A stretch of DNA of 64,000 bases from NCBI RefSeq assembly GCF_009914755.1, contig NC_060927.1; one strand, given 5' to 3'. Each line of letters opens with the position of its first letter. Position 1 is the stretch's first letter. Positions 21,395 through 54,089 of this stretch are shown one piece after another. The notes under the pieces were generated by a model that made no database searches, was not told the DNA's origin, and saw nothing but the letters and a program-made list of their open reading frames with translations. The DNA is from the human T2T-CHM13v2.0 reference genome, Homo sapiens. Position numbers and translations under genes: made by a program.

Positions 21395-21399
21395 TCAAC

Positions 21400-22338: not shown

Positions 22339-22371
22339 GCCTGGCATGGCAGCTCCTGCCTGTAATGCTGT

Positions 22372-25008
<2,637 letters not shown>

Positions 25009-25011
25009 CTC

Positions 25012-28390: not shown

Positions 28391-28755
<365 letters not shown>

Positions 28756-28964: not shown

Positions 28965-29585
<621 letters not shown>

Positions 29586-30343
29586 AAATTAAAAGAGTAG
29601 ACATACTTACTGTCCATAATAAAAGGTTCAGATTCCCTAAATTCAGGGTTTCCCTCCTCCAACACAAGCAAGCCACTGCATGTGCAGGTAGTACCTGGCC
29701 TTCATGTTGCTCTGTGGGAAGTAGGGCTCAAGGAACAAATGCAAGAAAAGGCTGACATACTGCTATTGCTGGAATTGTCATGTCTTCTGCCAGAATCCAT
29801 AGAAGTGTGGCAGCTAAGTTCTTAGCTTGCAAGTAGGGTAAAATCTCAGATCCTTCACAGTTCCTAACATGGATCAGATACTATGCTAGGTACTGGGAGC
29901 TCAGAGGGATTAGGGTTAGAATTTCATACCCAAAGACCTTGCAGTCATCTAGTACTACTGCTATTACCATCTATCCATTAGGCACACGACCATTTAACTT
30001 AAACTTCATTAATAACATTATACTTTCTTTCTAACTTTTAATCAAAGTAATGTATGTAAGGAAAAAAACTGAAGTACATTATGGCTTATTATTAAAATCA
30101 ACAGTTCTCATATCACATTTCTTCCCACTGCTTGGTTAGTTTCCAAGAGGCAATTACTTTAACCATTTCCATTTTTTATTACATAAGATGTTGTCTATGT
30201 CACTCTAAATTATATGTTTATACTTTAAGTTCCTGATATAAACTTAATCCACTGCATTTTTACTATGAAAACTAAATATTTTGGCTCATTATGCTACTTA
30301 CCATCTACCCTTTCTTTCTCCCCCCATTAAAAAAAGAAATTAA

Positions 30344-30662
30344 GTGGCTCATGTCTATAATGCCAGCACTTTGGGAGGTCAAGGTGACAGGACTGCTTGA
30401 GCCATGAGTTCAAGACCAGCCTAGGCAACACAGCAAGACCTCTATCTCTACAAAAAAGTAAAAAATTAGCTGGGCATGGTGATGTGCACCTGTAACCCCA
30501 GCTACTTAGGAGACTGAGGCAAGAGGATCACTTAGGCCCAGGAGTTCAAGGTTGCAATGAGATATGATCACACTACTGCACTCCAGCCTGCGTGACAGAG
30601 CAAGACCCTGTCTATTAAAAAAAAAAAAAAAAAAAAAAGCGAAAAGAAAAAAAAGAAAAAAA
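30344..30662 (+). mobile_element. AluJ
   Basis: gtggctcatgtctataatgccagcactttgggagg ... long poly(A). Confidence 0.9.
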
Positions 30663-30759
30663 TTTAAGGTATAATTTCCACACAGTAAAATATATCCCCT
30701 TTTTACTCAGGGACTAAGTTTTTCCTAAAAAAGTAAAAGTTTTTAAATAAAATATATTT

Positions 30760-32800
30760 CCTTTTATCATAGTTCTGCAACATTTGACAAATTCACTTTT
30801 GATATTACCCTGCAATCAACACAGATCATTCCCATTACCCAAAAATATTTCCCTTGTCCTTTATAACACCTCTCCTGCTCCCAGCAATCACTCTGTACCT
30901 ACAGATTTGTCATACAAATAGAATTATACACCATAGTGCTTTTGAGTCTGACTTCTTTCACTTAGTATAATGTATTTGAGAACCTTACATGTTAATGGGT
31001 GTACCAGTAATTTATTCCTTTCTATTGCCAGGTAATATTCCATTGTATGACTATACCACAATTTGTTTATCCAATCACACACTGAAGAACATCTGGGTTG
31101 TTTCTAGTTTTTGGCAATTATGAATAATGCCTACACTATAAACACTTAGGAACAGATTTTTATGTGTACTTATGCTTTTATTTCAATTCTATAAATACTA
31201 GTTACAGGTATCACTGTGTCACATAGCATGTGTAAGCTTCATTTTATAAGAAGTTGCCACACTCCTTTTCAAAGTGACTCTATGACTTGCATTTCCTCCA
31301 CTATTGTATGAGACTTTCAGTCACTCTGCATCCTCACTAGCACTTAGTATTGCTTGATTTTTTTAAATTAGACCAATTCTATTTGGCATATCATGGTATT
31401 CATTGTAGTTTTAAATTTCATTTCACTAATGAGCTATATTTTTTCCTGTGCTTATATTTACCATTCACACTTTTTCTTTGGTGAACTGTCTACTCAAATG
31501 TTTTGCCCATTTAAAAAACTGTTTTCTAATTACTGAGTTTTGAGAGTTCTTTATATCTTTTGGATTCACATCTTTTATGAAATTTATGATTTGCAAATAG
31601 TTTCTTCCAGTCTGTGGCTTATCTTGTTCTCTTAAAGCTGTCTTTTGCAGAGCAAAATTTTTAATTTTGGTAAAGTCTAATTTATCACTATTTTCTTTCA
31701 GGGAACACACCAAACCCAAGCTCGTGCAGATATTCTGTTTTCTTTTGTTAAGTTTCACATTTTACAGTTACTTAGTTCTATAATCAATTTTTAAATAATT
31801 TTTATATAAGCTTGGAGGTATATGTCTAGGATTTTTGCATTTGGATATCCAATTGTTCTAGATCTACTTGTTCTAGAACTCTGGAGTTGTTCTGGAACTC
31901 CACATTACCATTTCCTTATTAAATTGCCCTGGCACCTTTGTTTAAAAATCAGTTGCCCGTATATATGTGGGTCTACTTCTGAACTCTATTCTGTCCAATT
32001 AATCTGTCTTCATCATTTCCCTAATACCACACCATCTTAATTACAATAGTTTTCAGTAAGTTTTGAAATCAGGAAATATGTGTCTCCACTTTTTCATTTT
32101 CATCAGTCTTTCATGTAAAGATCTCATGTATATTTTGGATTTCTGGTACTGCTGTATATGGTATTAGGTTGCTACAAAAGTATTTGCAGTAAAAGCCACA
32201 ATTATGTTTGCAGCAAACTAATACTTTTTGAAATGTTTAATTTCCAATTGTTCACTGTAAGAAATAGAATTGATTTTTGTATATTGAGTAAGTATCCTTC
32301 CACCTACTAGTTACAGTAGCATCTTGCTAGGTTCTTTGAGATTTTTTACACTGATAATCACTTTGAGAATAGAAAAAGGTTTTCTTTCTTCTTTTCTAAT
32401 CTTTTGTTTTTCTTGCTTTATTGCTCTGCTTTAAATCCTACTTTATAGGATTTCAAATTATTTACATTTGTAATGGATTTTAAAGACCTAGACTATGATC
32501 TACCTGGGTTACTATTTCATGTCTCCTGTTGCTGGGTAACATGTTCTACAGATGTTAATTAGGTAAAGTTGGTTGACAGTATTGTTCAAGGCTTCTATAT
32601 CCTTCCTGACTTTCTGCCTGCTTCTTCTGTTAATTATTAAGAGGAGTGCTGAAGTCTCCAAATGTAACTGTGGATTTTTCTAGTTCTCTTTTCAGTTCTC
32701 TATTATTAATTCATGTATTTTGAAGCTATGTTGTTGGGGCATAAATATTTATAATTTTTATATCGTGTTGGTGAATTGACTGCTGTGTATTTCTCTTTTC
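30760..32800 (-). mobile_element. Old L1M (MB/MC/ME-type) fragments
   Basis: cttctttcacttagtataatg, tattccattgtatg, catctgggttgtttctagtttttgg. Minus ORF 31465-31758 (DKLDFTKIKNF) resembles ORF2p. Confidence 0.72.
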
Positions 32801-33056
32801 GGGGAGGAGAGGAGAATAAATGCAGGGGTACCCATTTTCTTTGGCCATATTCTGTTGTTTAATTGCTGTTTCTTAAGCTGGATACCAAGCTCATTAATTT
32901 TCAGTGATTTTGTAACACTATTAAGGTTAATTAAAAAGGAAAATGAAATGTGATCCTGTAAGTATGCTTTATAAAAAAAATCAGCAACACCAGCTGAGTC
33001 ACAATGATCTCTTTTCTGATCACCAAAATTCTGATTATTTAAAACATCTATTTCTT

Positions 33057-33366
<310 letters not shown>

Positions 33367-34691
33367 CTATTGTTGAAGGTATCTTTTTCAAGTAGTTTTC
33401 TCTGAGATAAAAATAACCACATGGAGTTCTACCTTACGTACATTTTAATGATGTTTTTCTTAACTCTCATTCAATATTTTAATGTACGCTTGGAGTTTTC
33501 AAGATCTAATCTGCACTTAGGCCAACCTGCAAAATTCAACCTCATCAAAATGTTTTACATGGCATTTTCATTCATTGACTCTCTGCCCTTTAGAATACAG
33601 TCCACCAGCTGCTTCACTCTAGTGAGATCCACTCAATAAAGACATCATATAAAAGCAAGACATTATTTACAGCTTGCTGGCATGCACTATACATCTGTGT
33701 TCATCTCAGATAAAAGGTTACAATGCAGGTCTAAAGGGTAATGTGAAAATTACTAACCAGCTTCAGCTAAGTAAGGAGTATCCTTGTGGATCAAGGGCAA
33801 ATGGAGAAATACAGTGGAGTCAAAAGCAAAGAGTATACAAACATGGTCATTACTATTAACTATAAACATTAATTTTCTTGAGATAATGTTAGTATATTAA
33901 GATTTTTTTTAAAGGTGATTCTTTATGACTGCTAAAAAACGCCTCTAATTTCTTCTAGATTCCCTATCACATTTGTTGGTGGTAGTTTCTAACATTTTCT
34001 ATAACCAGAATATCATTCATAACCCCTTTACTCTCCAGCTGATGACCCTCCTTACTTTATTTACAAGGAAGAGTGAGACCAGTTGATACACTCCATCAAC
34101 TTCCCTTTGCTGTGTCTTAACTATTTCCTCTATGTTCCCACATTGCTGAGGGGTATGACTTTCTCTGTCACCATTCTTTGGTTCAAGTACATATCGTCCT
34201 TCCTCCAATAAGTTACTTTTTCACTTGTGTCTTTGAGTTCCTATTTGCCTCTCTCTGCATACCACCATGCATACTCTAGCATCCACCTCATACCTAAATA
34301 TGCCCATTCACTCTTCCAACATTTTTAAAGCACCTAACAAGTGTAACTCATTGGATTGCCATGAGACAGAAAGTTAAGTAAAAATCCAGTCCTCCTTTCG
34401 GGAAACTCACAAACTATTGGGAAAGATGAACAGGTAAACAAATAATTACAATCAAGTGTAACAAATGTTAAGAGCAAAGGCATGTACAATCCAGTCATGG
34501 TATAAAGAAAAGAGAACTTAATTCTGCTTGGTTAGAGAGATATTTTCTTTCTTTTATATCTTCATCAAGCCCACCCTCTCTGACAGTTCTTTCTTCTCCT
34601 CCTCTTTCTACAGATAGGCTCAGGTCTTAAACCCAGAAATGAACAATGATGCTTAAGCTAATACCACTATAGCATCCCCTTTACTGGCACT

Positions 34692-34978
34692 TTTTTTTTT
34701 TCTTGAGACAGGGTCTCACTCCATTGCCAATGCTGGAGTGCAGTGGCATGATCACGGCTCCCTGGAGGCTCAACTTCTTGGGCTCAGGTGATTCTTCTAC
34801 CTCTGCCTCCTGAGTAGCTGAGGCTACAGTTGCATGCCACCACACCTGCTAATTTTTTGTAGAGACAGGTTTTTGCCATGTTGCCCAGGCTGGTCTTGAA
34901 TGCCTGGGCTCAGCAATCTGCCTGCCTCAGCCTCCCTACTAAGTGCTAGCATTACAGGTACAAGCCACTGCACCTGGC
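34692..34978 (-). mobile_element. AluJ
   Basis: Poly(T) plus antisense Alu. Confidence 0.9.
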
Positions 34979-36975
34979 CTGACACATTTTTTGGAAAGGT
35001 TATTTACTGTCTTTCATTAATTTTTTAAGCAAGTATAATCTTGCTTTTGGTTTCCACCATTTTACTGACACCTCACCAAAGTCAAAGTCAAATAATCCTC
35101 TCAGCATATCCAACCACCTTTTCTTAGTTCTCTCCATGAAAAGAAATCTCTGCTACAAGGGACTCTGTGGAACTTATTCTCTTCTCAAAATTTTCTCCTT
35201 GACTTTTGTGATACTTCACTACCCTAATGTATTTTCTCCCTCTCTCCCCATTTCTGTTCAGTCTTCATTGATCCCACCTCCTTTTAATGCTTGACAAAGA
35301 GAAGGATTAGCCAAGATTACATTTTCAAACACAGCTTTTGACACCCTACCTCTTCTCTCCCTCCAGCAAACTCATGATAATAAGCTCTAAAGTAGAGTGG
35401 AGTTCAGGGAAAAAAAAAAAATCTTAAGAGTCAGAAAGCCTGGCTTCAATTTTTGGTTCTGCCACTGACTTCCTACCTATGCACCATGGCATGTCACATC
35501 CTAGGACTCCAAAAAAGAGAATGGCTTTCTACCTATGCTACAATTCTAACTGAAAAGACCATCAGATTTCTAGTCCTAAATTATCTAATGCCCTAAATCC
35601 ACATTAATACCATTTAAATGCAGACATAATATGTTAACATAGATACACTAAGAACTTGTATTGTTTTCAAAAAGGTGATCCTTTATGATTGCTTAAAAAA
35701 AAGCCACTAATTCTTTATTTCTAGATTCCTTATCAAATATGTTAGCAGCAGTTTATAACCACTAAAATTAAGTCACTCAAACCGAAACCAACTATACTTC
35801 CTTTAAGTTACCTATTAGTATTTATGTATTGGTGCCACCATTATCCTAAGCTTGAAATCTTAATACTCCTATAGTCTTTCATTTGTGCATTCTCTCTCCC
35901 TAATTCCCAACCTTCGTGCAAGGCCTAATTCAAAGGGCATCTCTTCCATAAAGGGTTCCTTGACCTCTTCAGCTGGTTATAGTCTTTCCCTCATCAGAAG
36001 ACCCAAAACAGTCTATGTGTACCTCTCATGACACTTGGTTTATGTTTTTTTTTTTTCAGACACTGGTTTTGTGGGAGCAGGATTTATATCTGATTCTTCC
36101 TTGCATACTCTATGGCACCTTGAACACTGCTTTGCTCAAAGTACTAAAAAACTGTTTAAGATTTGTTATCTGAACTTTGGACACAGAAGCAGCTGTAAAG
36201 TTGTCTAGAGTAACAATTTTCTTTAAATAAAAATAACAGTTTAAAGATGTATGATGATTTAGATGTTCTAACTCTAAAATATATAATGTTCTTCTTAAGC
36301 TAAGGAAGCAGAAGCTCTTCCCCTATTCCTTCAAAATTCCAGTCAACTTGAAAGCACACTATAGAAAATAGTCTTTGCTATGTCACAATATTAATTTTTT
36401 AAAGGTAGAGTTACTACTACTAAAAAATGTACTGTTTCACATTTGGTTTTACAATCTGAGCATTTCCATTGTTCATAAGACAAAGTATTTTGACAAACTA
36501 TTTGATCTACCATCAGAAGTGTAGATTAAACACAGCAATAACTGATGCCTATCAGAACATTCAGCCAGTATGTACTACATTATCATCTGCTCAGAAAATA
36601 ATTTCCCAAACTGCAATATGCTGTCATTAATTTTCAGCTTCATTAATAAGCTTCCATGCATTGCTCAAAAATTTTATTTTTAAAGATGTAGTCCCCAGTT
36701 GAGATAGTAAAACAAACTGAGGTGTGGAGGAAGGTTTCCAGCTTCCTTTATGACTAGGAAAAATAAAAATGCAGCTTAGCAGACAGAAGAACTAGAATTT
36801 CCCAAGAGTCTAAACCAGATAAGTCAAGGTTTTAACTTAATTCATCTTGAAGATAAGATGTCTGGTGTGAGGCCTGACAAGTGGTACACAGCATCACTGC
36901 AAGAACATTAAATAAAACCGACAGATCTGTCTAAGGCCTCATTACTGCAGATGCAGAGAGAAGAATATGACCTAC

Positions 36976-37058
36976 CTGGCTTATCCCTCCAGGAGAGATC
37001 TTGTATGACTGCAACTTTTGCTTCAGCAGCTCTGGATCACTGTGACGGAATGGGCACC
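36976..37058 (-). CDS. PRIM2: PRIM2-type exon (equivalent to exon 12, residues 383-410, 83 bp)
   Basis: Read by hand, not in the ORF track: (G)[27 protein letters not shown]. Acceptor tttttttgttgtcAG (37059-37060), donor GTaggt (36974-36975). Phase 1 start fits the previous exon. Contains C384. Confidence 0.95.
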
Positions 37059-38449
37059 CTGACAACAAAAAAATAAGCCAGCACACAAACAAGGTTATTT
37101 ACCCACAACTTAGTACAATACCACACTCGAGAGACCATCTAAGCTCCCCTTAATTGTCTAACAGCTTATTAATAAAAAAAGGTAATTGCCCATGGGTGCA
37201 ACTGCTTTCCTCTTTTCATCTAAATGATTACTTAGCTGTATGGTTATCAGGGCACTCCAGGCTCAAGAGTTACATAAAACATTGCAGCATTCTCAGGCTA
37301 AGATGTCCATTCAACAGGAAGAGGGAAAACAGCTTTAATTATGCTCCTTGCTAACAAGCACAAATAATCACAAAATAGCTATGTAATAGTTTATTTTAAA
37401 ACTTTAACAATCTTCTTATATTCTAGTCTAAAAATTATATAAAAGGCATATGAGAGAAGGAAGATAGATAAACAAAATGAAAAACATGCAAACTCTGAGA
37501 AAGAAAAAAATTCAACATCATTTTCAAACGTAAATTATATGCCTATTTCCTAAAGCGTAGAATCTATGAAAATGTAAAAGAATCATGGATGGAAATGAGA
37601 TGAAAAAATAAACTATTTCATAGAAAAACAATTTATGGTGGATATGTGTCATCGTTATATTATTTCATGAAAAAAATGAAAGACCACTAGAAATATTCAC
37701 ATAAATAAGAATACAGAAGAATTTGAAATACAAAAGCTGTTTTAGGACAAAATCTAGAAAATTTTAGATATTTTAACAAACTGCAATGGTAAGTCAAAAT
37801 GCTTATTAAAAATTTAATACAGAAAAGTCTTTTTTTTCAGTCATACAGATGATAGATTTGTAAGTTAATAATTGTGCATTTTTCACAAATTAGAAAATCT
37901 AGAGGAAATGACTAAGTTCCAGGAAACACACAACCTTCCGTGACTGAAGCAGGAAGAAAGTGAAAATCTGAACAGACCAATAATGAGGTCTGAAATTGAA
38001 TCTGGAATAAAAAACCTATCAACCAGAAAAAGCCCTGGACCAGGTAGATTCACAGCCAAATTCTACCAGATGTACAAAGAAGAATCGGTACCAATCCTAC
38101 CAAAACTATTCCAAAAAACTAAGGGGGGCGACTCCCCCCATTAACTCAATTTATGAAGCCAGCATCACCCTGATACCAAAATCTGGCCGAGACACAATGA
38201 AAAAAAGAAAACTTCTGGCCAATATCTCTGATGACCATAGAATCAAAAATCCTCAACAAAATACTAGCAAACTGAATCCAGCAGCACATCAAAAAGCGAA
38301 TTCACCATGATCAAATAGGCTTTATTTCTGGGATGCAAGTCTGACTCAACATATGCAAATCAATAAAAGTGATTCACCACATAAACAGAATTAAAAACAA
38401 AAAACATATTATCTCAATAGAAAAAGCTTTCAATAAAATCCAATATCCT

Positions 38450-38749
38450 GGCCAAGCGTGGTGGCTCACGCCTGTAATCCCAGCACTTTGGAAGGCCGAG
38501 GCAGGCGGATCACGAGATCAGGAGATCAAGATCATCCTGGCTAACACGGTGAAACCCCATCTCGACTAAAAATACAAAAAATTAGCTGGGCATGGCGGCA
38601 GGCACCTGTAGTCCCAGCTACTCAGGAGGCTGAGGCAGGAGAACGGCATGAACCCAGGAGGCGGAGCTTGCAGTGAGCCCAGATCGCACCACTGCATTCA
38701 AGCCTGGGAAACAGAGTGAGACTCCATCTCCAAAAAAAAAAAAAAAAAA
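38450..38749 (+). mobile_element. AluY-like
   Basis: gatcaagatcatcctggctaacacggtgaaaccc; gcggagcttgcagtgag. TSD aaaatccaatat on both sides. Confidence 0.92.
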
Positions 38750-39150
38750 TCCAATATTCCTTCATGATAAAAACCCTCAAAAAACTAGATACCAAAGGAA
38801 TATACCTCAAAATAATAAGAACTATCCAAGAGAAACCCACAACCAACACCATACTGAATGGGCCAAAGCTCAAACCATTTCCCTTGAGAATGGGAACAAG
38901 ACAAGGATGCCCACTCTCCCCACTCTTACTCAAAATACTACTGGGAGTCCTACCCAGAGCAATCAGGCAAAAGAAAGAAATAAAAGCCATCCAAATAGGA
39001 AAAGAAGTCAAACTATCTTTCTTTGCTGATGATATGATTCTATACCTAGAAAACCCTAAAGAATGCACCAAAAAGGCTCCTGGAATTAATCAATGACTTC
39101 AGCAAAGTTTCAGGATACAAAATTAATATATAAAAATCAGTAGCATTTCT

Positions 39151-39408
39151 TTTTTGAGACAGAGTCTCACTCTGTCACCTGGTGCAGTGGTGCCATCTCA
39201 GCCAACTGCAACCTCCGCCTCCTGAATAGCTGGAATTACAGGTGCACACCACCACGCCTGGCTAATTTTTGTTTTGCTTTTTAATTTTAGTAGAAATGAG
39301 GTTTCACCATGTTGGCCAGGCTGGTCTTGAACTCCTGACCTCAAGTGATCTACCCGTGTTGGCCTCCCAAAGTGCTGGGATTACAGGCATGATCCACCAC
39401 GACCAGCC
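39151..39408 (-). mobile_element. Alu (internally deleted)
   Basis: 20-bp TSD TAAAAATCAGTAGCATTTCT at 39131-39150 and 39410-39429. Confidence 0.9.
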
Positions 39409-40029
39409 TTAAAAATCAGTAGCATTTCTACATACCAACAATGTTCAAGCTGAGAGCCAAATCAAAAACACAATTCTGTTTACAGTAGCCACCAAAAAAT
39501 AAATAAATAAAATATTTAGGAATACATCTAAGCAAGGAAGTGAAAGGTCTCTACAAGAAGAACTACAAAACGCTGCTGAAAGAAATCAGAGACAACACAA
39601 ACAGAAAAACATTCCATGCTCATGGATTGGAAGAATCAATATCATTAAAATGGCCATACCACCCTAAGTAATGTACAGATTCAATGCTATTTCTATCAAA
39701 CTACCAATGTCATTTTTCACAGAATAAGAAAACAACTATTCTAAAATTCATATGGAACTAAAAAAGAGCCTAAATGACCAAAGCAATCCTAAGCAAAAGG
39801 AACAAAGCCAGAGGCATCACTCTACCTAACTCCAAACTATACTATAAGGCCATTGTAACCAAAACAGTATGGTACTGGTACAAAAACCGACACATAGACT
39901 AATGAAACAGAATAGAGAATCAGAAATAAGACAGCATACCTACAACTATCTGACCTTCAACAAAGTCAATAAAAATAGGCAATGGAGAAAGGACTCCCTA
40001 TTCAATAAATGTGTTGGAATAACCAGCTA

Positions 40030-40605
40030 GCAGAGACATGAAAATTCTAAGAACAAAAAAGAAATGCTAGTGATCAAAAACACTGTAACAGAAATGAAGA
40101 ATGTCTTCAATAGGTTCATCAGTAGACTGGACATGACTGGGGAAAATCCTTGGATCTTGTGGATGTGACAGATAGAAACTTCTGAAACTAAAAAGCAAAG
40201 AGAAAAAAGACAAAAACAAAACAAAACAAAATACAATACCTAAGAACTATGGGACAACTATAAAAGGTATAACGTGTGTGTAAATGAAATCCCAAAAGGT
40301 GAAAAAAGAGAGAAAAGAACAGAAGCACAGATGGGGAGAAAACATTTGCAAAAGACAAATCTGATAAAGTACTGTTATGCAAAATACACAATGAACTCTT
40401 GTAAACTATGGGCTTTGGATGATAAGGATTTGTCAATGTAGGTTCATCAATTGTAACACATGTACCAGTGTGGTGTGGGATACTGACAGCAACGGAGGTT
40501 GTGCGTATGTTGGGGCATGGAGGTATACGGGAACTCTGAACTTCCCACACGATTTTGCTGTGAACCTAAAACAGCTCTAAAAAATTAAGTTTATTACTTT
40601 TTAAA
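40030..40605 (+). mobile_element. L1M (MC/MD-like) mosaic fragments
   Basis: gaaatgaagaatgtcttcaataggttcatcagtagactggaca (ORF1-like), and a 3'UTR-like end ttttgctgtgaacctaaaacagctctaaaaaa. Confidence 0.65.
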
Positions 40606-40923
40606 AACGGAGTAAGTAAATGTCCAACAAATAATGAGTTCATTGAGTGCTAAGTATAATATTTCTTGACTGACAGAGTTGAACTTAGAAACAAAATAAT
40701 AACATAAAGCACTGGGATAACAAGATACAACTTAACAGAAATAAAGTTTTGCATTTAAGCTAAAGAAAACCAACTAATTAAGAGACAAATGCTAGAACCT
40801 GGAAATTTGCAGACAAATCCCTGGGAGTTTTACTTGGCCACAAGCTTAATCATAAGTTGACTGCCTGGTATGGCTGCTAAGCTAAAAAAGGCTTCAGGCT
40901 TCCTCAACAGAAGTACCTGGACC

Positions 40924-41050
40924 CATGGTTTTCAAACTTTAGAAGACATAAAACTCACCCAGTGTACTTGCAAATAAAGTCTGATTTTATATGACTGAGG
41001 GTGCACCCTGAGAATCTGCATTTCTAAAAAAGTACCTCAAGGGACTCTGA
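40924..41050. mobile_element. MER5A-like fragment
   Basis: catggttttcaaactt ... ccctgagaatctgcatttctaa. Confidence 0.55.
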
Positions 41051-41072
41051 AATAAGTGATAAAAACCACTCA

Positions 41073-41373
<301 letters not shown>

Positions 41374-42214
41374 TCTATGTCTATATATAGATCTATCTTA
41401 TCTGCCTATCTATATAACTAGTGCTGGCCACTTCTTCATCTATTAACTAATGAATATATAGGCATTTTTTAATGATTTGGTCACATAGAATGTCTTTCTA
41501 AAAATATTGTTTATGATTATTTGATCTTTAGCAGTCCAAAAGTGTGCAGTCTTTTAAAAAGTGTTTAAGATTCTAAAACAAAAATAAGTTTTGACACATA
41601 CTGTAGTAAGCTTTGATAATCCAGAAAATTTACTGATATAAACTATTAATTCATTCTTGGACATACCAGACAAATGAGATGTTTTGTTTTTCTTTATAAA
41701 TAACTCAGGCAAACTGATAGTTATGGCAGATATCACGACATGTTAAATTGCCCACTTAATCTTTGTTGGTTAATCAGATGATGGTGATAAGAAAAAAACC
41801 TCACACTTTTCCTTAGTAGTTAGCCTTTGGAAAATTAATGAATCTACTATTCCAAACTTAGAATATTCTAATTTCAAAAAGCTTTGTAAAACTTACATCG
41901 CCCTCTAAGACACTCGCAGAACACTGCAGAAGATGAGGGAGACAGAGAACAGCGGGAAGGAAGAAAGTGAGAACTGAAAAGCCTAATCCAGCACAAACTG
42001 AAGTGCAGCTGAATGAATTTCTCTTGCCTGACCTAGTTCAGTAATAAGACAAATTGTTCTAAGAGTAATGGAGCTCTAGCTTGACAGTGACGACTGACAT
42101 AAGCTACAAACTAGGTCCTGACAGGAATGCAAAAAGCCGCAGCATTGTTTCAGTGTTTCCAACAGAGCTCTTGGATTTCTGTACTTGGCCAACATATCCA
42201 GTGGAGGCACTTAC

Positions 42215-42341
42215 CATGATAATCCCCTTGGCTTGGTGGATTGGATAGAATAATCTTCAGGCAACTGAAAGGTGTATAGTCTGTCCTCTTGCCTTCCTTT
42301 CCAAAGCTGTGACAGATGTTGTAAGAGCAACCTTTACCAAA
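42215..42341 (-). CDS. PRIM2: PRIM2-type exon (equivalent to exon 11, residues 341-383, 127 bp) carrying D342G/Y345C/R350C
   Basis: Minus-strand translation [42 protein letters not shown](G) matches recalled PRIM2 [43 protein letters not shown]. Acceptor tccatttcctcccaatcAG (42342-42343), donor GTaagt (42213-42214). Contains C367. Confidence 0.95.
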
Positions 42342-42778
42342 CTGATTGGGAGGAAATGGAAAAAGAGACAAAGTCAGCCAATAATTATACTAGTGAGGTC
42401 AGCAACACAAGCTAGAATCAAAGAGTGCAAAGCAATATTTTCTAGAATAAATTCAGCATTCACAGGCAGATGTACATTCATGCCATGTATATTATTTAGG
42501 TCCTTTATGATACAAATAATTTCTTTTTTAAAAAAAGGTACAAAACTTATAGAAAACAAATTTATCAGGTAGAAGACAGCTAATGTTACCTATACGTTTA
42601 AAGATAAAGTAAATCTTTTCCTGAGAAGAATAATCAATTTGCCCTTCTTCGTTTGATTCCAAAGATTATAGAAGAAAATCAGTTTAGCCTCTTTTCTATC
42701 CACCTTCCCCTAATTCTCCCTGAATTCCTGTATCTAACCCATTCTACTTCCTAAATGCCTATAAAATAGTTAATCCTA

Positions 42779-43088
42779 GGCCAGGTGCAGTGGCTCATGC
42801 CTGTAATCCCAGCACTTCAGGAGGCTTAGACGAGAGGATCGCTTGAGCCCAGGAGTTCAAGACCAGCCTGGGCAACACAGTGAGACCCATCTCTACAAAA
42901 AAATTAAATATTAGCTGGGTGTGGTGGCATGCACCTGTCGTCTCAGCTACTCAGGAGCCTGAGGTAGAATTATCACTTGGGCTGGGGGGTTGAGGCTGCA
43001 GTGAGCCATGATTGTGCCACTGTACTTCAGCCTGGGCAACATAGTGAGACCCGGTCTCAAAATATAATAACAATAATAATAATAACAA
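42779..43088 (+). mobile_element. AluJ with (AAT)n tail
   Basis: ggccaggtgcagtggctcatgcc ... ataataacaataataataataac. Confidence 0.9.
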
Positions 43089-43451
43089 TCCCTTCCTCTG
43101 GATTTCCACTATACAAAGTAGTCAGCAAATGCTTAATGAATGAAGTACTACAACTGCCTCCTACCCAGAATCCTTGCCTCCATGTTCATAAAACAAGCTA
43201 ATGGGACAGAAGGGACTTTGAACTGGGTCAGACAGGAGAACAAAAGGAACCAGCATATAATGAAAAGTGACCAGGTGCCAGGCATTTTGTAGGAGCTTTT
43301 AAAAGTGTAATCCCATTTAATCATTTAGATAATCACAACTCCTCTATGATGCTACACTTGAGAAAACTGAAGTTCAAAGTATGAAGCAATGTGATGCATG
43401 ACAGTTATTAAATGGTAGACATGTACAGACAAGTCTGATTCCAAAACCCAA

Positions 43452-43590
43452 CTCTACAAAAAAATGAAATATTAGCTGTGTGTGGTGGCATGCACCTGTC
43501 GTCTCAGCTACTCAGGAGCCTGAGGCAGTGAGCTATGATCGTGGCATTGCAGTCAGGGCAACAGAGCAATATTCTGACTCTAAGAAAAAT
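43452..43590 (+). repeat. Chimeric Alu fragment whose first 74 bp duplicate 42891-42964
   Basis: 72/74 identity, including non-consensus bases (gtcgtctcagc, ggagcctgagg). Confidence 0.85.
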
Positions 43591-44104
43591 TAAGAATTAA
43601 ATTTAAAAAGTCACTAACCATCATGCATTGGAAAACATTTAATGGAAGCAGAATAATGGGTTGATAGCTTCCTAATGCTATAGTAGACCAAGGAGTACTT
43701 CACACTTTTTTCTTCATGCATGCTGGTACTGAGGTGGGTGCAAAGATCCAATAGACAGATCTTACCTCAAGGAGTTTATGGTCCTGGAGGAACTAATCAA
43801 CTATGTGAATGCGTGATTAATAGAAAATAACATGATAATGTGTCATAAAAGAAGTAAAGTGCTATAAAAATCAAATATGTTATGAAGATAAATCTTCTAG
43901 AGAGGTCTAGGTATAAGTATAGGTAAAATGCTATTGAAATATGTAGGAAGAAGAGATTTTGGACCACAAAATGAAGTATCATTTAAAACGGAGTCTGAAA
44001 GAGAGAAGTTATGTCCTAAAAAGATTTAACTGGAAGTTATTACTTTTAAATATTTTGTTATTTCTTATTACTAAGGAAGTGTGGTATTACAGAAAGAGTG
44101 TGGG

Positions 44105-44319
44105 CTATATTCAATTCACTTCTGACACTAACTAGAGCTCATGCAGATCTCTCATGGATTAAGAGCTCAGTCTCACAAGACTGTGCCCTACTTCATATAC
44201 CAATTGCAAGCAGTAGGTTCCCAAGTCACCACAACTTCTGACCAGTTTGGCCACAAGTGGGAGGTTACCAGAACCCCCTTCTCAGGTTCAGTAATGTGCT
44301 AGAGCAGCTCATAGAACTC
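44105..44319 (-). repeat. Inverted duplicate of MER21 segment 47471-47685
   Basis: 212/215 identical to the reverse complement, with no indels. Confidence 0.95.
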
Positions 44320-44499
44320 CTGGGCTCAAGTGATCTTCCCACCTCAGCCTCCTGGGTGACTAGGACTACAGGTGTGTGTCACCAGACAAGGTCTTGCTAT
44401 GTTGCCCAGGCTGGTCTCAAACTCCTGGGCTCAAGCAATCCTCCCACCTTGGCCTACTAAAGCCCTGGGATTGCAGATGTGAGCCACTATGTCGGGCCC
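44314..44499 (-). mobile_element. Deleted AluJ fragment
   Basis: gaactcctgggctcaagtgatc ... gtgagccactatgtcgggcc. Confidence 0.85.
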
Positions 44500-46469
44500 T
44501 TGGTTGATGATTTTCTAATTCCACTACTAGGTGACACTCATCTGGCATAACAACCCATACCCCATTGGTCAACCAAAAGCAGACAATGTACCTTTGACAA
44601 GATATCTGGCAAGAGCAAATATTCAATACTGGTGGAATCTTGGACAAAAATCTAATTTTCCTGGGAAAGAGGTAGGGGTTAGGGTGGGTGTCCCATGTTA
44701 AGTGGTCATTTGGGCAAAAACTACAAACCTAAAACCAAGTTTCTAAAATGAATTTTAGAGTACGGCAAATGACTGATTTAGTCAAAAATTTATCTTCTAC
44801 TCTGAAAAAAATACATGTTTGTTTAAAAGACAAACCTTGCCACTTTTATACTGGAGCACAATCTTAAACTACCACTCAGTGATCTCTCAAGGCTGGCACA
44901 AACAGAATTATCAGAAGCTGTGAGTGGCTGTGGAGCACATCAAATGTTCCTACATGGTACATTAAGCAACACTTGTTAAATAGTGAGAAGCCAGATTGCC
45001 CAAATAACAAGTCATTTTCAAAGGGCAAAATCTTCAAGGTTCTCACTCTAATAATTAGAGTGAAATGGCTATAAAGAGCTTATAGTTTTTACTGCTATGA
45101 TTCTTTAACTTATAAAATGGATACTGTAGAAAGCTTAGAGAATGATTACTTGGCAATTTTTCATACATGAAATTAAAGTATCATGTAGATAGAAATAAAA
45201 ATAAAACAGATTATTTTGAGTTTATAAATAATTATACATATTGGCAATGAACTGAAACTTAAATACAAAAGGTGGGCAGGCCATATTTTGGAAAACAGGT
45301 AAATCCCCCCTCTTTTAAGTGACTGCAAGACACTTCAGAGTTGCCTTGGCTTGCTTTCTCTGGGCTCATACTAAGAGCAACACACACAGAGTAGGCATTT
45401 TAAAGATCCCAGGCTTGGGAGGCAAAGAAACCTGGGAAAGAATCCCCAGCTTGTCCACTTATAAAGGGTATTACTTCAATCCTCAATTTTCCTAATCTAT
45501 AGGGACAGTAATATTAATGCATTAAATTGCTATGGAGATTATATTAAATTAAATTAAAACATTAAGCAGAGTACCTGTCACATCCTTTGTTCTCAATAAA
45601 TATTAGCTGCTATTGGTGAGGGAAAAACCGGAAAATATTTGGTGTCCTAGTTTAAACACTGACTATGCTACTGCAAAAGACTTCTATTTCAGTAGATACT
45701 AACAGAACCTTTACCTAAAGGTTTAGGGAGAATAAAAGACTCACTAAACTATTCAATTACACTTCTAGTCATCTTCTTAAAATGTCCCCCTTCTTCCAAC
45801 TCCTATCCACAACTCTAACTATTCATACAAACTGGCTCAAATGTCACTTCCTCTGTGGAATCTTCCCAAGCACCCAAGGCAGAAGACATTGCTTCCTCAA
45901 AAGAATGCACAGCAGCAGTTTGTACAGTGCTGTACCTTTCTTGTTGCAATGGAATTTAGTTTTGTATTTATCACTTCTAAACTAGGAATGCTGTTAAGGG
46001 CAGGGACTTGGTTGCGTACTCATCGTAGCATGCCTACTCAGTATCTGATAAAACATCTACTCATAGGAGGTGCTCAATAACCTTCACTTGAATGAAAGAG
46101 CAAATAAGCAGTAGCTGTCTGGAAAGATGAATGTATAAATATGCTTCAAGGGATTTTAACTTATCAGGATTAAATAACTTCAAAAACTTGCCAAATCATT
46201 GCAAGTTTACACGGCTGTGCTATTTTGTTCTTCTGGATAGCTTTTCTTCTTCACTGTAACAACAACAACAAAGACTGAAAAAGAGTTTAAATGATGCCCT
46301 ATATAGAGTATAGTGGATACATTAAAAGATAATAAAAGTAATAAATTTTATTTTCTTTCAAAAATTGCCTCAGTATAGTGGGACTGGGCTGTCCAATACT
46401 TTAAGAGAATAAGAAAGAGAGTCAGAATAAGAGATAGGAAAATACCTTGCTATTTTTTGTGTGAGATTT

Positions 46470-48825
46470 TTTAATTTGAGGTTATAATTTAAATATAGTG
46501 AAATGCAGATATCTTAAGTCTATAGTTTGATCAGTTTGGGTAAGTGACTATACCTATATAACCCACACCCCTACCAGAAGATAGAACATTTCTATCAACC
46601 TGTAGAATTCCCTCTTGCTTCTTCTCAGTCAACATTCCCCTCCCTCCACAACCAGAAGCAACTACTGATCCGATTTTTGTTACCACAGATTAGTTTTAAC
46701 TATTCTATAACTTTATATCAATGGAATCATACGGTATAAAGTATTTTGTGTCTGGCTTCTTTCATGTCCTTTAATGCTTCTGAGATTTATCCTTGCCATT
46801 ACATGTATCAGCAATTTGTTCTTTTTTATTGCCGAGCAGTGTTCTACTGTATGGATATACCAGATTGCTTGTCTAGGCTCTTGCTGATGGGCACCTGGAT
46901 GTGATATTGTGATACAATAAGAAATGTGTATTTGATCCCTGACCCTGGTTCCTCGCAGAGAGTTCCCAAAACTCTTGTAATTTCCTGAGCAAGAGGGATG
47001 CTAGGTGCATCTTTTGTTCTAATATTTGGTCTGTGGCGCCAGTTTCTAACAGAGTTGCTAATCCCTTGGAACTTCCTGGGCATTGATAAGAGTGTCTTTT
47101 GTTCTAATGAGGTGACTCTTGGTGGGCTCCTGGATGGGGGCTGGTCACCAGAAAGACCAAGCCATAATTAGAAGCCTGGAACTTTCAGACACACTATGCC
47201 ATCGTCCAGGAAAAGGAGGGGGCTGAAAAATGAGTTAATAAATGCTCAGCCTGTATGATGAAGCCTCCATAAAAATCCCTAAACTACAGGGTTTAGAAAG
47301 CATCTGGGATGCTGAAGACATGGAGATGATAGGAGGGTGGAACACCCAGAGAGGGCATGGAAGGTCCATGCCGCTTCCTACATATCTTACCCAGAGTACT
47401 TCTTTGTCTGTTCACCTGTATCCCTTAAAACAATCCTTTATAATAAACTGATAAATATAAGTGTTTCCCTGAGTTCTATGAGCTGCTCTAGCACATTACT
47501 GAACCTGAGAAGGGGGTTGTGGTAACCTCCCACTTGTGACCAAACTGGTCAGAAGTTGTGGTGACCTGGGAACCTACTGCTTGCAATTGGTATATGAAGT
47601 AGGGCACAGTCTTGTGAGACTGAGCTCTTAATCCATGAGAGATCTGCATGAGCTCTAGTTAGTGTCAGAAGTGAATTGAATATAGGCTATCCGGCTAGCA
47701 TCAGAGAATTGGTCAGTGTGAGAAAAATCCACACATCTGGTCACTATACCCTTTGTGTTAAGAGTACAGTAGGAGAAAATTGGTTTTTTCCTACCATACA
47801 CACTGGGCTTTTACAGTTTTTGGTTATTCTCAATCAAGTGGCCATGAACATTCTTACATATGACTTTTGTAGGTATATATTTTCATTTCTCTGGGATAAG
47901 TACATAGAAGTGGAATTGCTGCCAAACATTTTCCAGAGTAGTTGTACTATTTTATACCCCCACCAGCAATCACTGACAGTTCTACATTCTCCCCAACATT
48001 TGGTATGATCAATCTTGCTAATTTTAGCCATTCTGGTGGGTAGCCAGTGGCATCTCACTTTGCATTTCCCTGATGACTAATGATCATGAGCACTTTTTCA
48101 TGTGCTTTTTGACCAGTGATATTCCTTATTTTATGAAATGTCTGTTCAAATCTTTTGCCCATTTAAAAATGTTGATTGCCTTCTTTTAATAATTGAATAA
48201 TTCTTTATATATTCTGGACACAAGCCTTTTGTCAAATATAATTGTAACAAAGGCTTATCTACTTGACGTTATCTTCTGATGAGCAGGTGTTTTTATTTTT
48301 GATGAAGTCCAATTTATCAACTTTTTAATGGTAGTGCTCTCTGTGTCCTAAGATAAATTGCAAAGATATTTTTATGTTGTCCTTTAGAAATTGTAATGTT
48401 TTAGCTTTTAAGTCTAGGTCCTGATTCATCTCAAGTTAATTTTTGTCTGTGGTGTAAGGTAGGAATCAAAGTCCTTTTTATTCTGCATGTGGAAAAACAC
48501 CTTTCCGAACACCATATGTTGAAGACACTTTCTTTTTCCCATTAAATCACGTCAGCATCCTCATCAAATTTGACCACATATGTGTAGTTCTATTTTTGGA
48601 ACTGGATCTGACTGGATCAGATCCAACTGGATCCCATTGATCTATATGTCTGTCCTTTTGCCAATAACACAGTCTTGATTACAATAGCTTTAGAGTAACT
48701 TTCAAAGGTAAGTGAGTCCTACTTTGTTCATTTTCAAGATTATTTTGGCTATTCTACGTCCTTGCATTTCCATATAAATTTTAGAATTGGCTTGCCGATT
48801 TCTTTTAAAAAGAGAATGCTGAAAT
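46470..48825 (-). mobile_element. Old L1M (MB/ME-type) 3' region, interrupted by MER21
   Basis: tttgaggttataattt ... aatggaatcatac ... gcatttccctgatgactaatg ... catttccatataaattttagaat. Confidence 0.75.
46900..47802 (+). mobile_element. MER21 solo LTR
   Basis: Starts tgtgatattgtgatacaataagaaatgtgtatttg, ends ...cataca(ca). TSD-like ctgg on both sides. Confidence 0.82.
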
Positions 48826-49510
48826 TTTTAACAATCGGTAGTTTATGTCTTCACAACTGCTATCTGTCCACAAGTAACCAATAACCAGAAAAACAAATAG
48901 CATTTCAAAGAAAAGAAAACTTTCAAGAAAGAAGAAAGACTTTCAAGCCATCATTAATTTAACTGGTGAAAACAAGGACATTAAAATTTCCACCAAACAC
49001 TTTATAAACAACTTCTGTTTGTTTCTTTAGTCATAAACATGAACTATAATCTTTTTTGTGAAAACTTTTAGGTAGGAATTGAATTTAATTAGATACAAGA
49101 TTTCAGTTATGTTCATCACAAAATAGGGAAAGAACATTTTGGTAAGCTATTCTGTTAAAATAATAGAAAGCTAATCTCTCTAAAAGAGAAAAGCTAGAAG
49201 TATTAACTTCCCTCTTCTTTCCAATTCATGTACTGCCTTTGTATACATGTCTAAAATTTGGACTCTTCCAAGCCTACTGGAAACAAGAAAAAAATAAAAA
49301 TAAATGAAACTTGGATCTTACTAAGCTTTCAAACTATCCATGTATTTACCAAACAAATTGTCATCTCTGGTTTTCAAATTTACAAATTCAAGAAATATTG
49401 TACAGAGACTGTATTTACTTGGAGATATTTTTTAGCAAATACTTTATAGGTCTTCATATCCACAACTCAAAGGAAAACCTCTAAGCATTGGGTATGAAAA
49501 GAGGTAGGAA

Positions 49511-49796
<286 letters not shown>

Positions 49797-50285
49797 GAGG
49801 TAGGAAGAAATAAATAGAAAACATATGTTTCTGTCTAGGCTCTTCCCTCCCACTCCATTCATTCAGTGTGGGGAAAGGCCAGAAAGTCAAGACAGGTCTG
49901 AAGGTGGGTACGTGGCAGTTTGCAACCTTCAAAATTAGTCCAGACATCCCAGCTGTGGCACTGGCAATACACCAATATGCATTCCTATCAAAGACAGCAG
50001 TAAGTTACTTTCAGAGGCATTGTGTTAAATGATGAACTCAAGAAAAACTGTAAAGCAGGCACACCTTTATCTAGTTCCAACTCTGTTCTCAGAGCCTCTT
50101 TCGCAACTTTGTCTTCTATCCCAAGCCCACCCAGGGTCTAGTGACCTTATTATATTTTTTAAAGTATTTATGCCCAAATCTATTCAAACACTATGGTATA
50201 AACATCTCTTTGCTGACATGGACAGTGCATTGCATGGTCTTCCTTAGAATAAAGTCTTTTCTACAAGGAAAAAAACACAGACTAA

Positions 50286-50597
<312 letters not shown>

Positions 50598-50789
50598 TAC
50601 TACTCCTATTTTCAAAGCAACAAAAACTTCACTATACAAGGTCGGCTTGAACAATAAAGTGAGAATGGTTAAAAAGTATCCTTTAGAGAGAGATTTGTAT
50701 TCAAAAAGGAACATCTTCTTGACCTAAATGAGGCAAAAGAGCCATGTATATGTTCACAGAAATCAGCATAAGGATATGGCATTTAAAAA

Positions 50790-51465
50790 TTTTTAATTTT
50801 TAAATTTATTACACATGCAGGTTTGTTATACCATTATATTGTGTGAAGCTGTTAGGGCTTTTAATGATCCCATCACCCAAGTAGTGAACAAAGTACCCAA
50901 TAAGTAGTTTTTCAACCCTTCTTCTTTTCCCTCTCTCCTGGCTCTAGGTCCTCAGTGTCTATTTTTCCCATATTTATGTCCATGCGTACCCAGTGTTTAG
51001 CTCCTACTTATAAGTGAGAACATGCAGTATTTGATTTTCTGTTCCTGTGTTAATTCACTTAGGTTAACGACCTCCAGCTGCATCCATGCTGCTGCAAAGG
51101 ACATGATTTTGTTCTTTTTATGGCTGTGTAGTATTCCTTCGTGTATATGTACCATATTTTCTTTATCTAATTCACCTTTGATGGGTACCTGGGTTGATTT
51201 CATATCTTTGCTATTGTGAATAGTGCTGTGATAAACATAAAAGTGCAGGTGTCTTTTTGGTAGAACAATTTATTTTCCTTTGAGTATATACCTAGTAATG
51301 GGATTCCTGGGTGGAATGGTAATTCTATTTTAGTTTGAGAAATCTCCAAACTGGGGATTTCCTCAGGGGCTGAACTGATTTGCATTCTCGCCAGCAGTGT
51401 GTAAGGATTCCCTTTTCTCCACAATCTCGCCATCATCCATTAATTTTTGGCTTTTTAATAACAGC
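50790..51465 (-). mobile_element. L1 (L1PA15-16/L1PB) 3' end fragment
   Basis: Minus ORFs 50997-51436 resemble the ORF2p C-terminus (IPLLGIY...TCTFMFITALFTIAK; KYCMFSLISRS). Confidence 0.85.
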
Positions 51466-53786
51466 CAGATACAACATTTCTTCAGGAGGACATTTTAACC
51501 TTCTTTTTAGTGGCAGGTGTTTCTTACCTTCAAGAACTTGGAACTCTAATTTCCATATTAAAAGAAACAAAGTGAGAGTCTGCTAAACTACAAAGTGACC
51601 TCATTATTACTCACCAGTGCCCAGAATTTAGGATACCAAAATCATTAGAAGCAGGTCCTATGAAGATTAGTTATCATAAGTACTAACAGAAACTCAAGCT
51701 CAGCATCAGGGTCACACATATAAGTGAACCTATCAGGAGGAAAAGGGCATGAAACCATCTTATGGCCTTTTCTTAGCACACATTCTTGTGATAATTTTTT
51801 GACCTATTGATTATGTTGTCTTGAGTCACTACCTTAAAGTCTAATGTATAATTTTAATAACCAGAGTGATGTTATAGGCATTTAATATATGGTGCCCCCT
51901 TTTAAATTCTTATGTAACTAAATTACTCAATTACTATCTATTAAACTAAATTTGTAATCAGTCACCTATAGATCCAAATACTTCCCTTTAACTCTTAACT
52001 TCAAACACAGTTTAACTCTTAGAGATCATTGAAACATCACACATATTCTAACCAAACAACACACCAAAGGAGATGTGGAGGCCCCAAGGAGTCCAGGAGG
52101 CAGTAAATACTAATGGTTGAAGTCAGATACTCAAGTTTAAATATTGTCTCTAATACATGCTAGCTGTGTGACCTTGGACAGTTTACTTAACTTCTTTGCA
52201 ACAATTCTCTTTTATGTAAAAAAGGAGTTATATCTATCACATAGGGTTGACTTGGGGATTAAGTTAGCTCATTTTCATAAAGTACTTGGTATAGCGTCCT
52301 GCACACAGTGATAAAATGCTCTCCTTGACCAAACTTTAGTCAGGCTCTTCTGAACCTCATCTCAACTAGGCCTAGAGCTTTGGATTTCTGTGTTCCTCTT
52401 TACATCACCCAGTTGTAACAGGAATCTTACAAGGTCAGTTGAGAAAGAACTCCCCAGATATTGAAATCACCCTCAATATCTGATCAAATTCCTCACTGCC
52501 ACCCTTGGTATCTTATCACCCTGGCCAACCTGCAGCAAGGATCCTGTTAGTTCTGTTTAACCAGAATCGCCTTACCTGTGATGTTTCTTTCCTCTTAGTA
52601 ATTTTTCATCCACTGACCCCCATCCCTGCTCTCTTGACCATGCTATTTGGAATTAGGAATCCCCACTTGTGCATGCTCTCTATATGGAATTAAGCCCAGT
52701 TCTATACTGGAATCCCTTCTTCTATTGCAGCTTTTCCTGAATAAAATCTGTTTTTACCATTTTAACTACTATCTCTTATTTTTCTTTAACAGTTTTTCGT
52801 CCATGATTCAGATCTGGATCTGAACCACCATTAGACTCTTGGACACAATAACCAATCTCTAAGCATACACCAAGACTTTGTCTTCAGTCTGCTTGCTTTT
52901 TGGGTATCTGGTGGTGAGTGACTCCAATATCCAGTGCTCCAGATAAATGTCCATCGAATCACAGTGAGGAAAGATTTTGATTAAGATTCTGATTACATTG
53001 TCTGAAGCTGGATTAGAGGCCCAGACTTCTTTGTTTGAAAGGCATCTACTCAGCTAGACGTCTTTCTTTCTGGGGCTCACTGCGTCAAGAAGACATTTAC
53101 TCCCTGACTCCTGAGCCTGGCTCTTGGCTGGAAAATTCTTCCTGGATCTTTGTCTCCTGGGATGAAGACTTTTCCTGGCTCTTTGTTTCCAGTGGGGATC
53201 CACTCCCCAGTGCCTGGGCTGGAATTTTTTCCCTGCTCTTTATAAGGCCTCTCTCTTCTGTCTGTTTAATCCTGCTTCTCCCATGGGAACTTCTCAATTG
53301 AAACCTCACTTTATCAAACTCCTGCTTTGCCACTATAGTTCTAATACTGTCTGCTTGCTTTCTCACTGGCAAAGCCTTACCAAAAACTCTCTTCAGCTAT
53401 GGTGGGGGCTCCTCGTATATCCCTAAATTAGTCCATCTAAAAACAGCCCTAGAGCAAAAAGGAACAAAGCTTTTGGATGCACAGCGGTCTGCTTATTTCA
53501 CTTGGTATTAAGAAGCCAAAAAACAGCTAAATAATTCAAATCTCAGTCAAACTACTGAGGCTCTTTCGCACTGTCTGTAGAAAAATTTTTCTGACTCAGT
53601 AAAGTTCCTAGAGCTCTCAACAGCACCTCCATATTCCCCTCCCAGCTTTCCTTTATAGCCTCCTCTCCCAAACTCTCTTCCACCATCTGCCCCCTCCTCC
53701 AGTCCCTCACCTCCCTGTAACCAAAAGGTTCACTGGCCTCCATCTCCTTCAGATGAAGCCCAGGATCAGCCAGTACCTGTTCCCAA

Positions 53787-54089
53787 GTGAGGCTAATAGA
53801 AGAGAGAACATTTAAACCTTGGTCTAGGTCTGAATTGCATCCTATCACCAAATACTTTCCTGACCACAGAAAGGAAAGGGAAAGGTTTGTTGAACAATTT
53901 AGAATCATTCTAGGTGCATACTTTCTGGGATTCCGTGATTTAAATCAACTTATCTGCCTGTTGGTTGGGCCTGGAAATGCCTCCCTTTGCTTTGAAAAAG
54001 CTAAATGGACCACTATTTCTGATGAACCTCAGTTCCTTCCTTGGGTGCACAAGGGTCTCAGGCTACCCCTGATACCCCGAGGGAAGTAA
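53787..54089 (+). pseudogene. ERV gag capsid-like remnant
   Basis: FKPWSRSELHPITKYFPDHRKERERFVEQFRIILGAY..GFRDLNQLICLLVGPGNA resembles ERV1 gag. Surrounded by stops. Confidence 0.6.

What the first reader, a model, noticed from the sequence alone, without database searches (positions are those of the whole stretch)
42312..42338. Paralogue bases could explain apparent PRIM2 SNPs, somatic Y345C calls or A-to-G editing
If the canonical codons are GAT and TAC, two of the differences are sense-strand A>G (GAT>GGT, TAC>TGC); the third, from CGT, would be a CpG transition (CGT>TGT). Short reads from this copy mapped to a reference lacking it would look like heterozygous variants, allele-specific expression or ADAR recoding. 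From memory, Y345C has been studied as a tumour-associated p58C variant. Finding the same codon in genomic DNA here suggests such calls may be paralogous sequence variants. This is inference.
Basis: inference. Interest (0 to 1): 0.7.

Follow-up and report, generated by a model that had tools for sequence, protein, structure and literature searches.

The report
Pseudogene base behind PRIM2 Y345C calls
A broken extra copy of the DNA primase gene PRIM2 on chromosome 3 carries the very base recorded as the human variant Y345C, which shows up as a variant in nearly everyone tested against the old reference genome, so its reported link to stomach tumours is likely a read-mapping artefact.

Summary
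The three changes are real. Against the intact PRIM2 gene (chr6:57.44 Mb), the chr3 pseudogene exon carries c.1025A>G (D342G), c.1034A>G (Y345C) and c.1048C>T (R350C). They equal the hg19 'SNPs' rs9885913, rs9885916 and rs9885751 in alleles and spacing, called heterozygous in at least 96, 94 and 93 of 108 cell-line exomes. Of 46 tabulated PRIM2 SNVs, 43 are differences among three CHM13 copies. hg19's reference for this exon is itself a third, stop-bearing copy on chr6. False SNPs and false monoallelic expression are therefore supported by data. A 2025 paper lists Y345C in all 21 centenarians studied. The 'gastric tumour' label cites COSMIC; I could not see that record or its reads, so the somatic step is inferred (about 0.8). 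Editing mimicry is not supported: RNA is canonical-only at a nearby site in 102 of 103 lines. The clustering of the changes is chance-level. The paralogue and its false heterozygous calls are known; the link to Y345C was not found in ten searches.

The parts
42215..42341 (-). Pseudogene copy (LOC101930420) of the PRIM2 exon encoding residues 341-382 (exon 11 by recalled numbering); intact AG/GT ends
   Evidence: RefSeq row in the finding
42336..42338 (-). Codon GGT; base 42337 = c.1025A>G, D342G, equal to hg19 chr6:57467084 A/G (rs9885913)
42327..42329 (-). Codon TGC; base 42328 = c.1034A>G, Y345C, equal to hg19 chr6:57467093 A/G (rs9885916)
42312..42314 (-). Codon TGT; base 42314 = c.1048C>T (CpG transition), R350C, equal to hg19 chr6:57467107 C/T (rs9885751)
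42246..42246 (-). Synonymous c.1116G>A (L372), shared with the second chr6 copy; hg19 chr6:57467175 (rs4406234); the diagnostic site showing that the RNA is canonical
42321..42321 (-). Third base of codon 347: C here and in the intact gene, G (TAG stop) in the second chr6 copy and in the hg19 reference (rs4535533)
36976..37058 (-). Next exon copy, identical in all three copies
8395..8463 (-). Following exon copy, identical in all three copies
1..63723 (-). Segmental duplication: the window is collinear with canonical PRIM2 introns and exons at about 96-98% identity (59,225 of 64,000 bases covered by the chr6 stretches fetched; two gaps are chr6 stretches I did not fetch, one is an insertion)

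Best explanation
The three bases are ordinary differences of the broken chr3 copy of PRIM2 and are the same bases that GRCh37 pipelines report as rs9885913 (D342G), rs9885916 (Y345C) and rs9885751 (R350C), likely because reads of three gene copies pile onto one locus; the tumour-linked Y345C call is likely one of these. Mechanism: GRCh37 lacks the chr3 copy (from print) and uses the second chr6 copy's sequence for the 3' exons (shown by allele and spacing match). DNA reads from six alleles would map to one place, with the chr3 base in about a third of them, so nearly everyone is called heterozygous (shown in tables). RNA comes mostly from the intact gene (shown at one diagnostic site), so the site looks monoallelic. 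The site is missed in roughly one sample in ten, so a tumour can be called while its normal is missed, giving a 'somatic' call (inferred).
For: Three copies in CHM13; only chr3 has G, G, T at these sites. The five PRIM2 SNVs tabulated for this exon on hg19 have spacings 9, 7, 7, 68 and the alleles of the five columns that differ among the copies. 43 of 46 tabulated PRIM2 SNVs fall on such columns against a 2.8% background. Heterozygous in at least 94 of 108 exomes, far above the 50% ceiling of a true SNP (P about 5e-16). A published table annotates chr6:57467093 A/G as rs9885916, PRIM2 Y345C, shared by all 21 genomes studied. PRIM2 had the most false heterozygous calls (618) in a haploid genome on GRCh37 and 6 variants out of Hardy-Weinberg equilibrium in 1303 exomes. 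The chr3 copy has a +1 frameshift and two stops in the preceding exon. Only 5 of 1863 possible missense SNVs in residues 232-509 are chr3 differences (0.27%), and Y345C is one; A>G is the only single change that turns TAC into a Cys codon.
Against: No reads were examined: cis linkage on single reads and presence in matched normals are untested. The COSMIC record and the paper that introduced Y345C as a tumour variant were not available, so its assembly, method and validation are unknown. Three of 46 table sites are not differences among the CHM13 copies, so true polymorphism exists in these copies. Calls at the three sites are not perfectly matched (96, 94, 93 lines), and R350C is absent from the centenarian lists, although no PRIM2 site beyond the hg19 stop at codon 347 is listed there either. 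One genome (CHM13) defines the copy differences.
Confidence: 0.88

Rival explanations
1. The SNP calls are paralogue artefacts, but the gastric-tumour Y345C record is a genuine, independent somatic A>G change in the intact gene.
For: A>G is a common transition; COSMIC is cited as the source; the paralogue base should be present in normal tissue too and be subtracted.
Against: Coincidence with one of 5 chr3 missense differences among 1863 possible missense changes is 0.27% under a uniform model. The site is missed in about 9% of samples, so tumour-yes, normal-no discordance would be about 8% if calls were independent (rough).
Confidence: 0.15
2. Y345C exists as a true allele of the intact gene in some people, copied in from the chr3 copy by gene conversion, alongside the mapping artefact.
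For: The copies are 97-98% identical. At hg19 chr6:57398154 RNA calls are mixed (59 T inferred, 20 C), and 3 of 46 sites are not fixed copy differences.
Against: No G-only RNA call at Y345 in 94 lines. The mixed RNA calls in the preceding exon sit where the 'reference' call is only inferred and would imply loss of Cys287, so they look like mapping dropout.
Confidence: 0.05
3. Transcripts of the chr3 copy mimic ADAR recoding of PRIM2 at D342 and Y345 in RNA-seq.
For: Both changes are sense-strand A>G; RefSeq lists the copy as a transcribed pseudogene; low-level G reads would escape genotype-type calls.
Against: At chr6:57467175 both extra copies carry A, yet RNA is G-only in 102 of 103 lines. 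The G is present in DNA and has dbSNP ids, which editing pipelines normally filter (general knowledge). A>G is only 14 of 68 differences around the exon, matched by 13 T>C. A search for PRIM2 with editing terms gave two papers whose PRIM2 passages concern allele-specific expression, not editing.
Confidence: 0.1

Closest known systems
PRIM2 cryptic segmental duplication, chr6/chr3 (Genovese et al. 2013, not seen; as cited in 10.1101/072116 and 10.1101/006841, passages read)
   Same: Same locus, LOC101930420; missing from GRCh37; source of hundreds of false heterozygous calls on PRIM2.
   Different: The passages read name no individual codon and do not mention Y345C, COSMIC or the third copy's role as hg19 reference sequence.
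Paralogous sequence variants called as SNPs in collapsed duplications (GPRIN2, DUSP22, PDE4DIP, SRGAP2; MAP2K3, HYDIN, ZNF717)
   Same: Near-universal heterozygosity, Hardy-Weinberg failure, apparent expression of one fixed base.
   Different: Here one such base has been taken up in biochemistry as a gastric-tumour mutation and in ageing genetics as a longevity SNP.
p58C Y345C in the primase charge-transport debate (PMC7690218; abstract, passages and references read)
   Same: Identical amino-acid change and, necessarily, identical base change.
   Different: That paper treats it as tumour-linked and has no occurrence of 'pseudogene', 'paralog', 'SNP', 'polymorphism' or 'germline'. The physical results on the engineered mutant are unaffected; only the disease link is.
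ADAR A-to-I recoding sites
   Same: A>G on the sense strand at two of the three sites.
   Different: The G is genomic, and the RNA examined is canonical.

Membership tests
Paralogous sequence variant miscalled as a SNP | A second genomic copy carries the alternative base | tested here: met
Paralogous sequence variant miscalled as a SNP | That copy is absent from the mapping reference | tested here: met
   From print only: passage in 10.1101/072116 says it was missing in GRCh37; hg19 itself was not searched
Paralogous sequence variant miscalled as a SNP | Heterozygosity above 50% in unrelated samples | tested here: met
   At least 94 of 108 cell lines; variant called in 21 of 21 genomes, genotype not given
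Paralogous sequence variant miscalled as a SNP | Neighbouring copy differences are called together | tested here: met
   5 of 5 in this exon, 43 of 46 over the gene, at table level
Paralogous sequence variant miscalled as a SNP | Alternative bases in cis on single reads; call vanishes on a complete reference | not testable with these tools
   No read data. Every 75-150 nt read over Y345 covers at least one partner site and 69-85% cover both, so the test is easy
False somatic call from a paralogue | Tumour call base-identical to the paralogue base | tested here: met
   TAC to TGC is the only single change giving Y345C and is the chr3 base
False somatic call from a paralogue | Supporting reads carry paralogue markers and occur in the matched normal | not testable with these tools
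   COSMIC record and reads not available
Unprocessed (duplicated) pseudogene | Introns retained and collinear with the parent; reading frame disrupted | tested here: met
   (frameshift at codon 298, G304*, Q325*)
Apparent A-to-I editing site | G in RNA reads, absent from DNA | tested here: not met
   G called in DNA of 94 lines; no G-only RNA call; RNA canonical-only at the neighbouring site in 102 of 103. Low-level G reads not excluded

The most novel reading that the evidence does not exclude
PRIM2 Y345C, used in the primase iron-sulfur charge-transport literature as a gastric-cancer mutation and listed as a deleterious longevity SNP, has never been a variant of the working gene: it is the fixed base of the chr3 pseudogene (rs9885916), and PRIM2 'monoallelic expression' still reported on hg19 in 2023-2025 is the same three-copy collapse.
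Probability: 0.78. Interest if true: 0.5.

Novelty: new member of a known kind. Interest (0 to 1): 0.42.

Why it matters
It would remove the disease rationale from a mutant used in the debate on charge transport through primase (PMC7690218 argues that Y345's relevance is 'indicated by' the tumour link), without touching the physical measurements. It also explains, base by base, PRIM2 signals still appearing in print on hg19: unresolved monoallelic expression and a drug association in cell lines, 'deleterious' SNPs shared by all centenarians, and plausibly the tumour-enriched allele-specific expression in a lung cancer cohort (that study's reference genome and sites were not checked). The biology of the locus is ordinary: a decayed duplicate. 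The value is a concrete, cheaply testable correction.

Tried and rejected
Clustering as a sign of selection or editing: rejected as chance-level. Editing mimicry: not supported; a local fold of the canonical exon left the Y345 adenosine unpaired in one predicted structure, which I count as uninformative. The table's 'RNA reference' counts (75 A, 0 G at Y345) were first read as direct evidence, then downgraded because the methods infer the reference base when no alternative-only call exists, and at several sites this gives the non-canonical base; I rely on the directly called site 57467175. The first mapping of the upstream exons failed through misalignment (the exon-9 part too) and was redone; offsets were fitted per exon, except that the exon-9 offset equalled the predicted one and the single most upstream site was placed by prediction. 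Searches for a published somatic PRIM2 list gave nothing usable: PMC5217664 (intronic renal hotspot, not tested against the copies), PMC6279800, PMC9101377 (hg38; 'breakpoints' in PRIM2 in all patients). Nine paper look-ups were not held, including O'Brien 2017, Genovese 2013 and Chung 2012. Earlier scan findings were not available.

Full report
Observation. Window 42215-42341 on the minus strand is a 127-nt exon with AG/GT ends. Its translation matches human primase large subunit residues 341-382 in solved structures, with substitutions at 342, 345 and 350, and Pfam PF04104. A search of the window's own genome found three copies of this exon: the window (chr3:91.62 Mb), chr6:57.44 Mb and chr6:61.67 Mb. 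The chr6:57.44 Mb copy translates to the structure sequence; over exons for residues 232-509 it is open to its stop. Against it the window has GGT for GAT (base 42337), TGC for TAC (42328), TGT for CGT (42314) and a synonymous change at 42246. The cluster is not special: divergence is 2.1%, nine comparable triples lie in the same 3.2 kb, and 13% of random placements put one in this exon.

What the locus is. The window is collinear with canonical PRIM2 at about 96-98% identity over the 59,225 bases covered by the chr6 stretches I fetched. The chr3 copy begins just before the exon for residue 232 (RefSeq span in the finding) and has a one-base insertion at codon 298 and stops at 304 and 325 in the exon before ours, so it cannot encode p58C. 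In residues 232-509 it differs by five missense changes: G310D, D342G, Y345C, R350C, R453S. The chr6:61.67 Mb copy is also broken: C287Y and Y347* among 13 coding differences in the six exons compared. That the chr3 copy was missing from GRCh37 and added in GRCh38 is in print (10.1101/072116, one passage), as is PRIM2 being the gene with most false heterozygous calls, 618, in a haploid genome (10.1101/006841, one passage). A Korean exome study lists PRIM2 among genes with several variants out of Hardy-Weinberg equilibrium, six in its Table S4 (PMC5565953, passage and one table row).

Test against real variant calls. PMC12105275 analysed exomes and RNA of 108 cell lines on hg19 (passages, one methods section and PRIM2 rows of Tables S15 and S16). 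For this exon it lists five heterozygous sites, 57467084, 093, 100, 107 and 175. Their spacings (9, 7, 7, 68) and alleles are those of the five columns that differ among the CHM13 copies. Over the gene, 43 of the 46 PRIM2 rows of Table S16A fall on such columns with matching alleles: 1 of 1, 7 of 7, 2 of 4, 8 of 8, 5 of 5 and 20 of 21 by region, against a background of 2.8% differing columns (offsets were fitted per region). The misses (57393112, 57393144, 57512874) are low-count sites. The nine PRIM2 sites seen in five or fewer lines (55 minus 46) were not tested. At isoform level D342G, Y345C and R350C are heterozygous in 96, 94 and 93 lines; these are lower bounds out of 108, since only lines called monoallelic are tabulated. 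A true SNP cannot exceed 50% (P about 5e-16 for 94 of 108). The paper leaves PRIM2's status unresolved and has no occurrence of 'paralog' or 'segmental duplication'.

The hg19 reference base equals the chr6:61.67 Mb copy at 38 of 38 sites from 57393112 onward, but the intact copy at the 8 upstream sites. The hg19 distance between the two middle exons (68,930) fits that copy (68,932) and not the intact gene (63,311; my arithmetic). So hg19's PRIM2 is a chimera with a stop at codon 347. Six alleles would map to one place, the chr3 base at about one third, with two to five mismatches per read against the reference. That would explain why the site is missed in roughly one sample in ten.

Longevity claim. 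A search for the rs numbers gave one paper. PMC12506250 (abstract, passages, references, supplement rows; GRCh37) annotates chr6:57467084 as D342G and 57467093 as rs9885916, Y345C, both 'deleterious' and common to all 21 centenarians and supercentenarians, and says rs9885916 was earlier associated with longevity, citing a thesis I did not see. All 9 of its 9 PRIM2 non-synonymous sites are copy differences. R350C is not listed, which counts against strict co-calling; but nothing beyond codon 345 is listed, which fits the hg19 stop at 347 ending the annotated frame (inference).

Somatic claim. PMC7690218 (abstract, passages, first part of references) states that Y345C is linked to gastric tumours and cites the COSMIC database paper for it; it never mentions pseudogenes or SNPs. 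A single-base Y345C must be c.1034A>G, the chr3 base. Under a uniform model a true mutation in residues 232-509 hits one of the five chr3 missense differences with probability 0.27%, whereas the artefact is called in about nine of ten hg19 exomes, and independent misses would give tumour-yes, normal-no in about 8% of pairs (crude, based on cell lines). I put the artefact reading of the COSMIC record at about 0.8. It is not shown: I saw neither the record, its reads, nor O'Brien 2017 (recalled as the paper that introduced the mutant; not held).

Editing claim. The table's RNA 'reference' counts are inferred where no alternative-only call exists, so '0 G' at Y345 is weak. The directly called site is 57467175: both extra copies carry A, which matches hg19 and so maps easily, yet RNA is G-only in 102 of 103 lines. 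Paralogue RNA is thus minor in these lines. A>G has no excess among the differences (14 of 68, with 13 T>C). A literature search found no PRIM2 editing report in the PRIM2 passages of its two hits. Low-level or tissue-specific mimicry is not excluded, since RefSeq lists the copy as transcribed.

Novelty. Ten full-text searches found no paper that ties Y345C, D342G or R350C to the paralogue; others (PRIM2 and the variant names, any two terms; PRIM2, T2T-CHM13, paralogous) returned none. The library lacks most subscription papers and does not search supplements, and Genovese 2013 was not available, so the link may be stated there or in database flags. The locus and the class of artefact are known; the specific identification is a new member of that class. 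Exon numbers and the L1 subfamily label are recalled, not from a call.

Verdict. Observation confirmed; interpretation partly supported: false SNPs and false allele-specific expression supported by published call tables, false somatic call likely, editing unlikely. Interest 0.42.

Noticed in passing
L002 (G000:C6:61666778-61666924) and neighbouring loci: A second broken chr6 copy of PRIM2 (C287Y, Y347*) supplies the hg19 reference bases for the 3' exons, so hg19's PRIM2 is a chimera of two copies.
   Followed up: yes
window 13216-15945: About 2.7 kb insertion absent from the intact gene: a LINE-1 fragment whose 5' part is inverted, ending in a poly-A, flanked by a duplicated site of about 19 bases. 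Its 3' end looks like L1PA2 (recalled diagnostic). Presence in the second chr6 copy was not checked.
   Followed up: partly
window 15790-15915; L043 (G000:C1:206671480-206671602): Between the LINE-1 poly-A and the duplicated site lie about 123 unique bases 98% identical to chr1:206.67 Mb, with a poly-A signal: a likely 3' transduction. CHM13 has no LINE-1 next to the chr1 source, so the donor element is absent there.
   Followed up: partly
L015 (G000:C3:91678462-91678672), outside the window: The chr3 differences G304* and Q325* also appear as hg19 'SNPs' rs71214816 and rs62398999; they would be read as PRIM2 nonsense variants.
   Followed up: yes
PRIM2 locus in PMC5217664, PMC9101377, PMC10115639: Reports of an intronic renal-cancer hotspot, of 'breakpoints' in all germ-cell tumour patients and of tumour-enriched allele-specific expression at PRIM2 are candidates for the same duplication artefact; only passages were read and their sites were not tested.
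   Followed up: no
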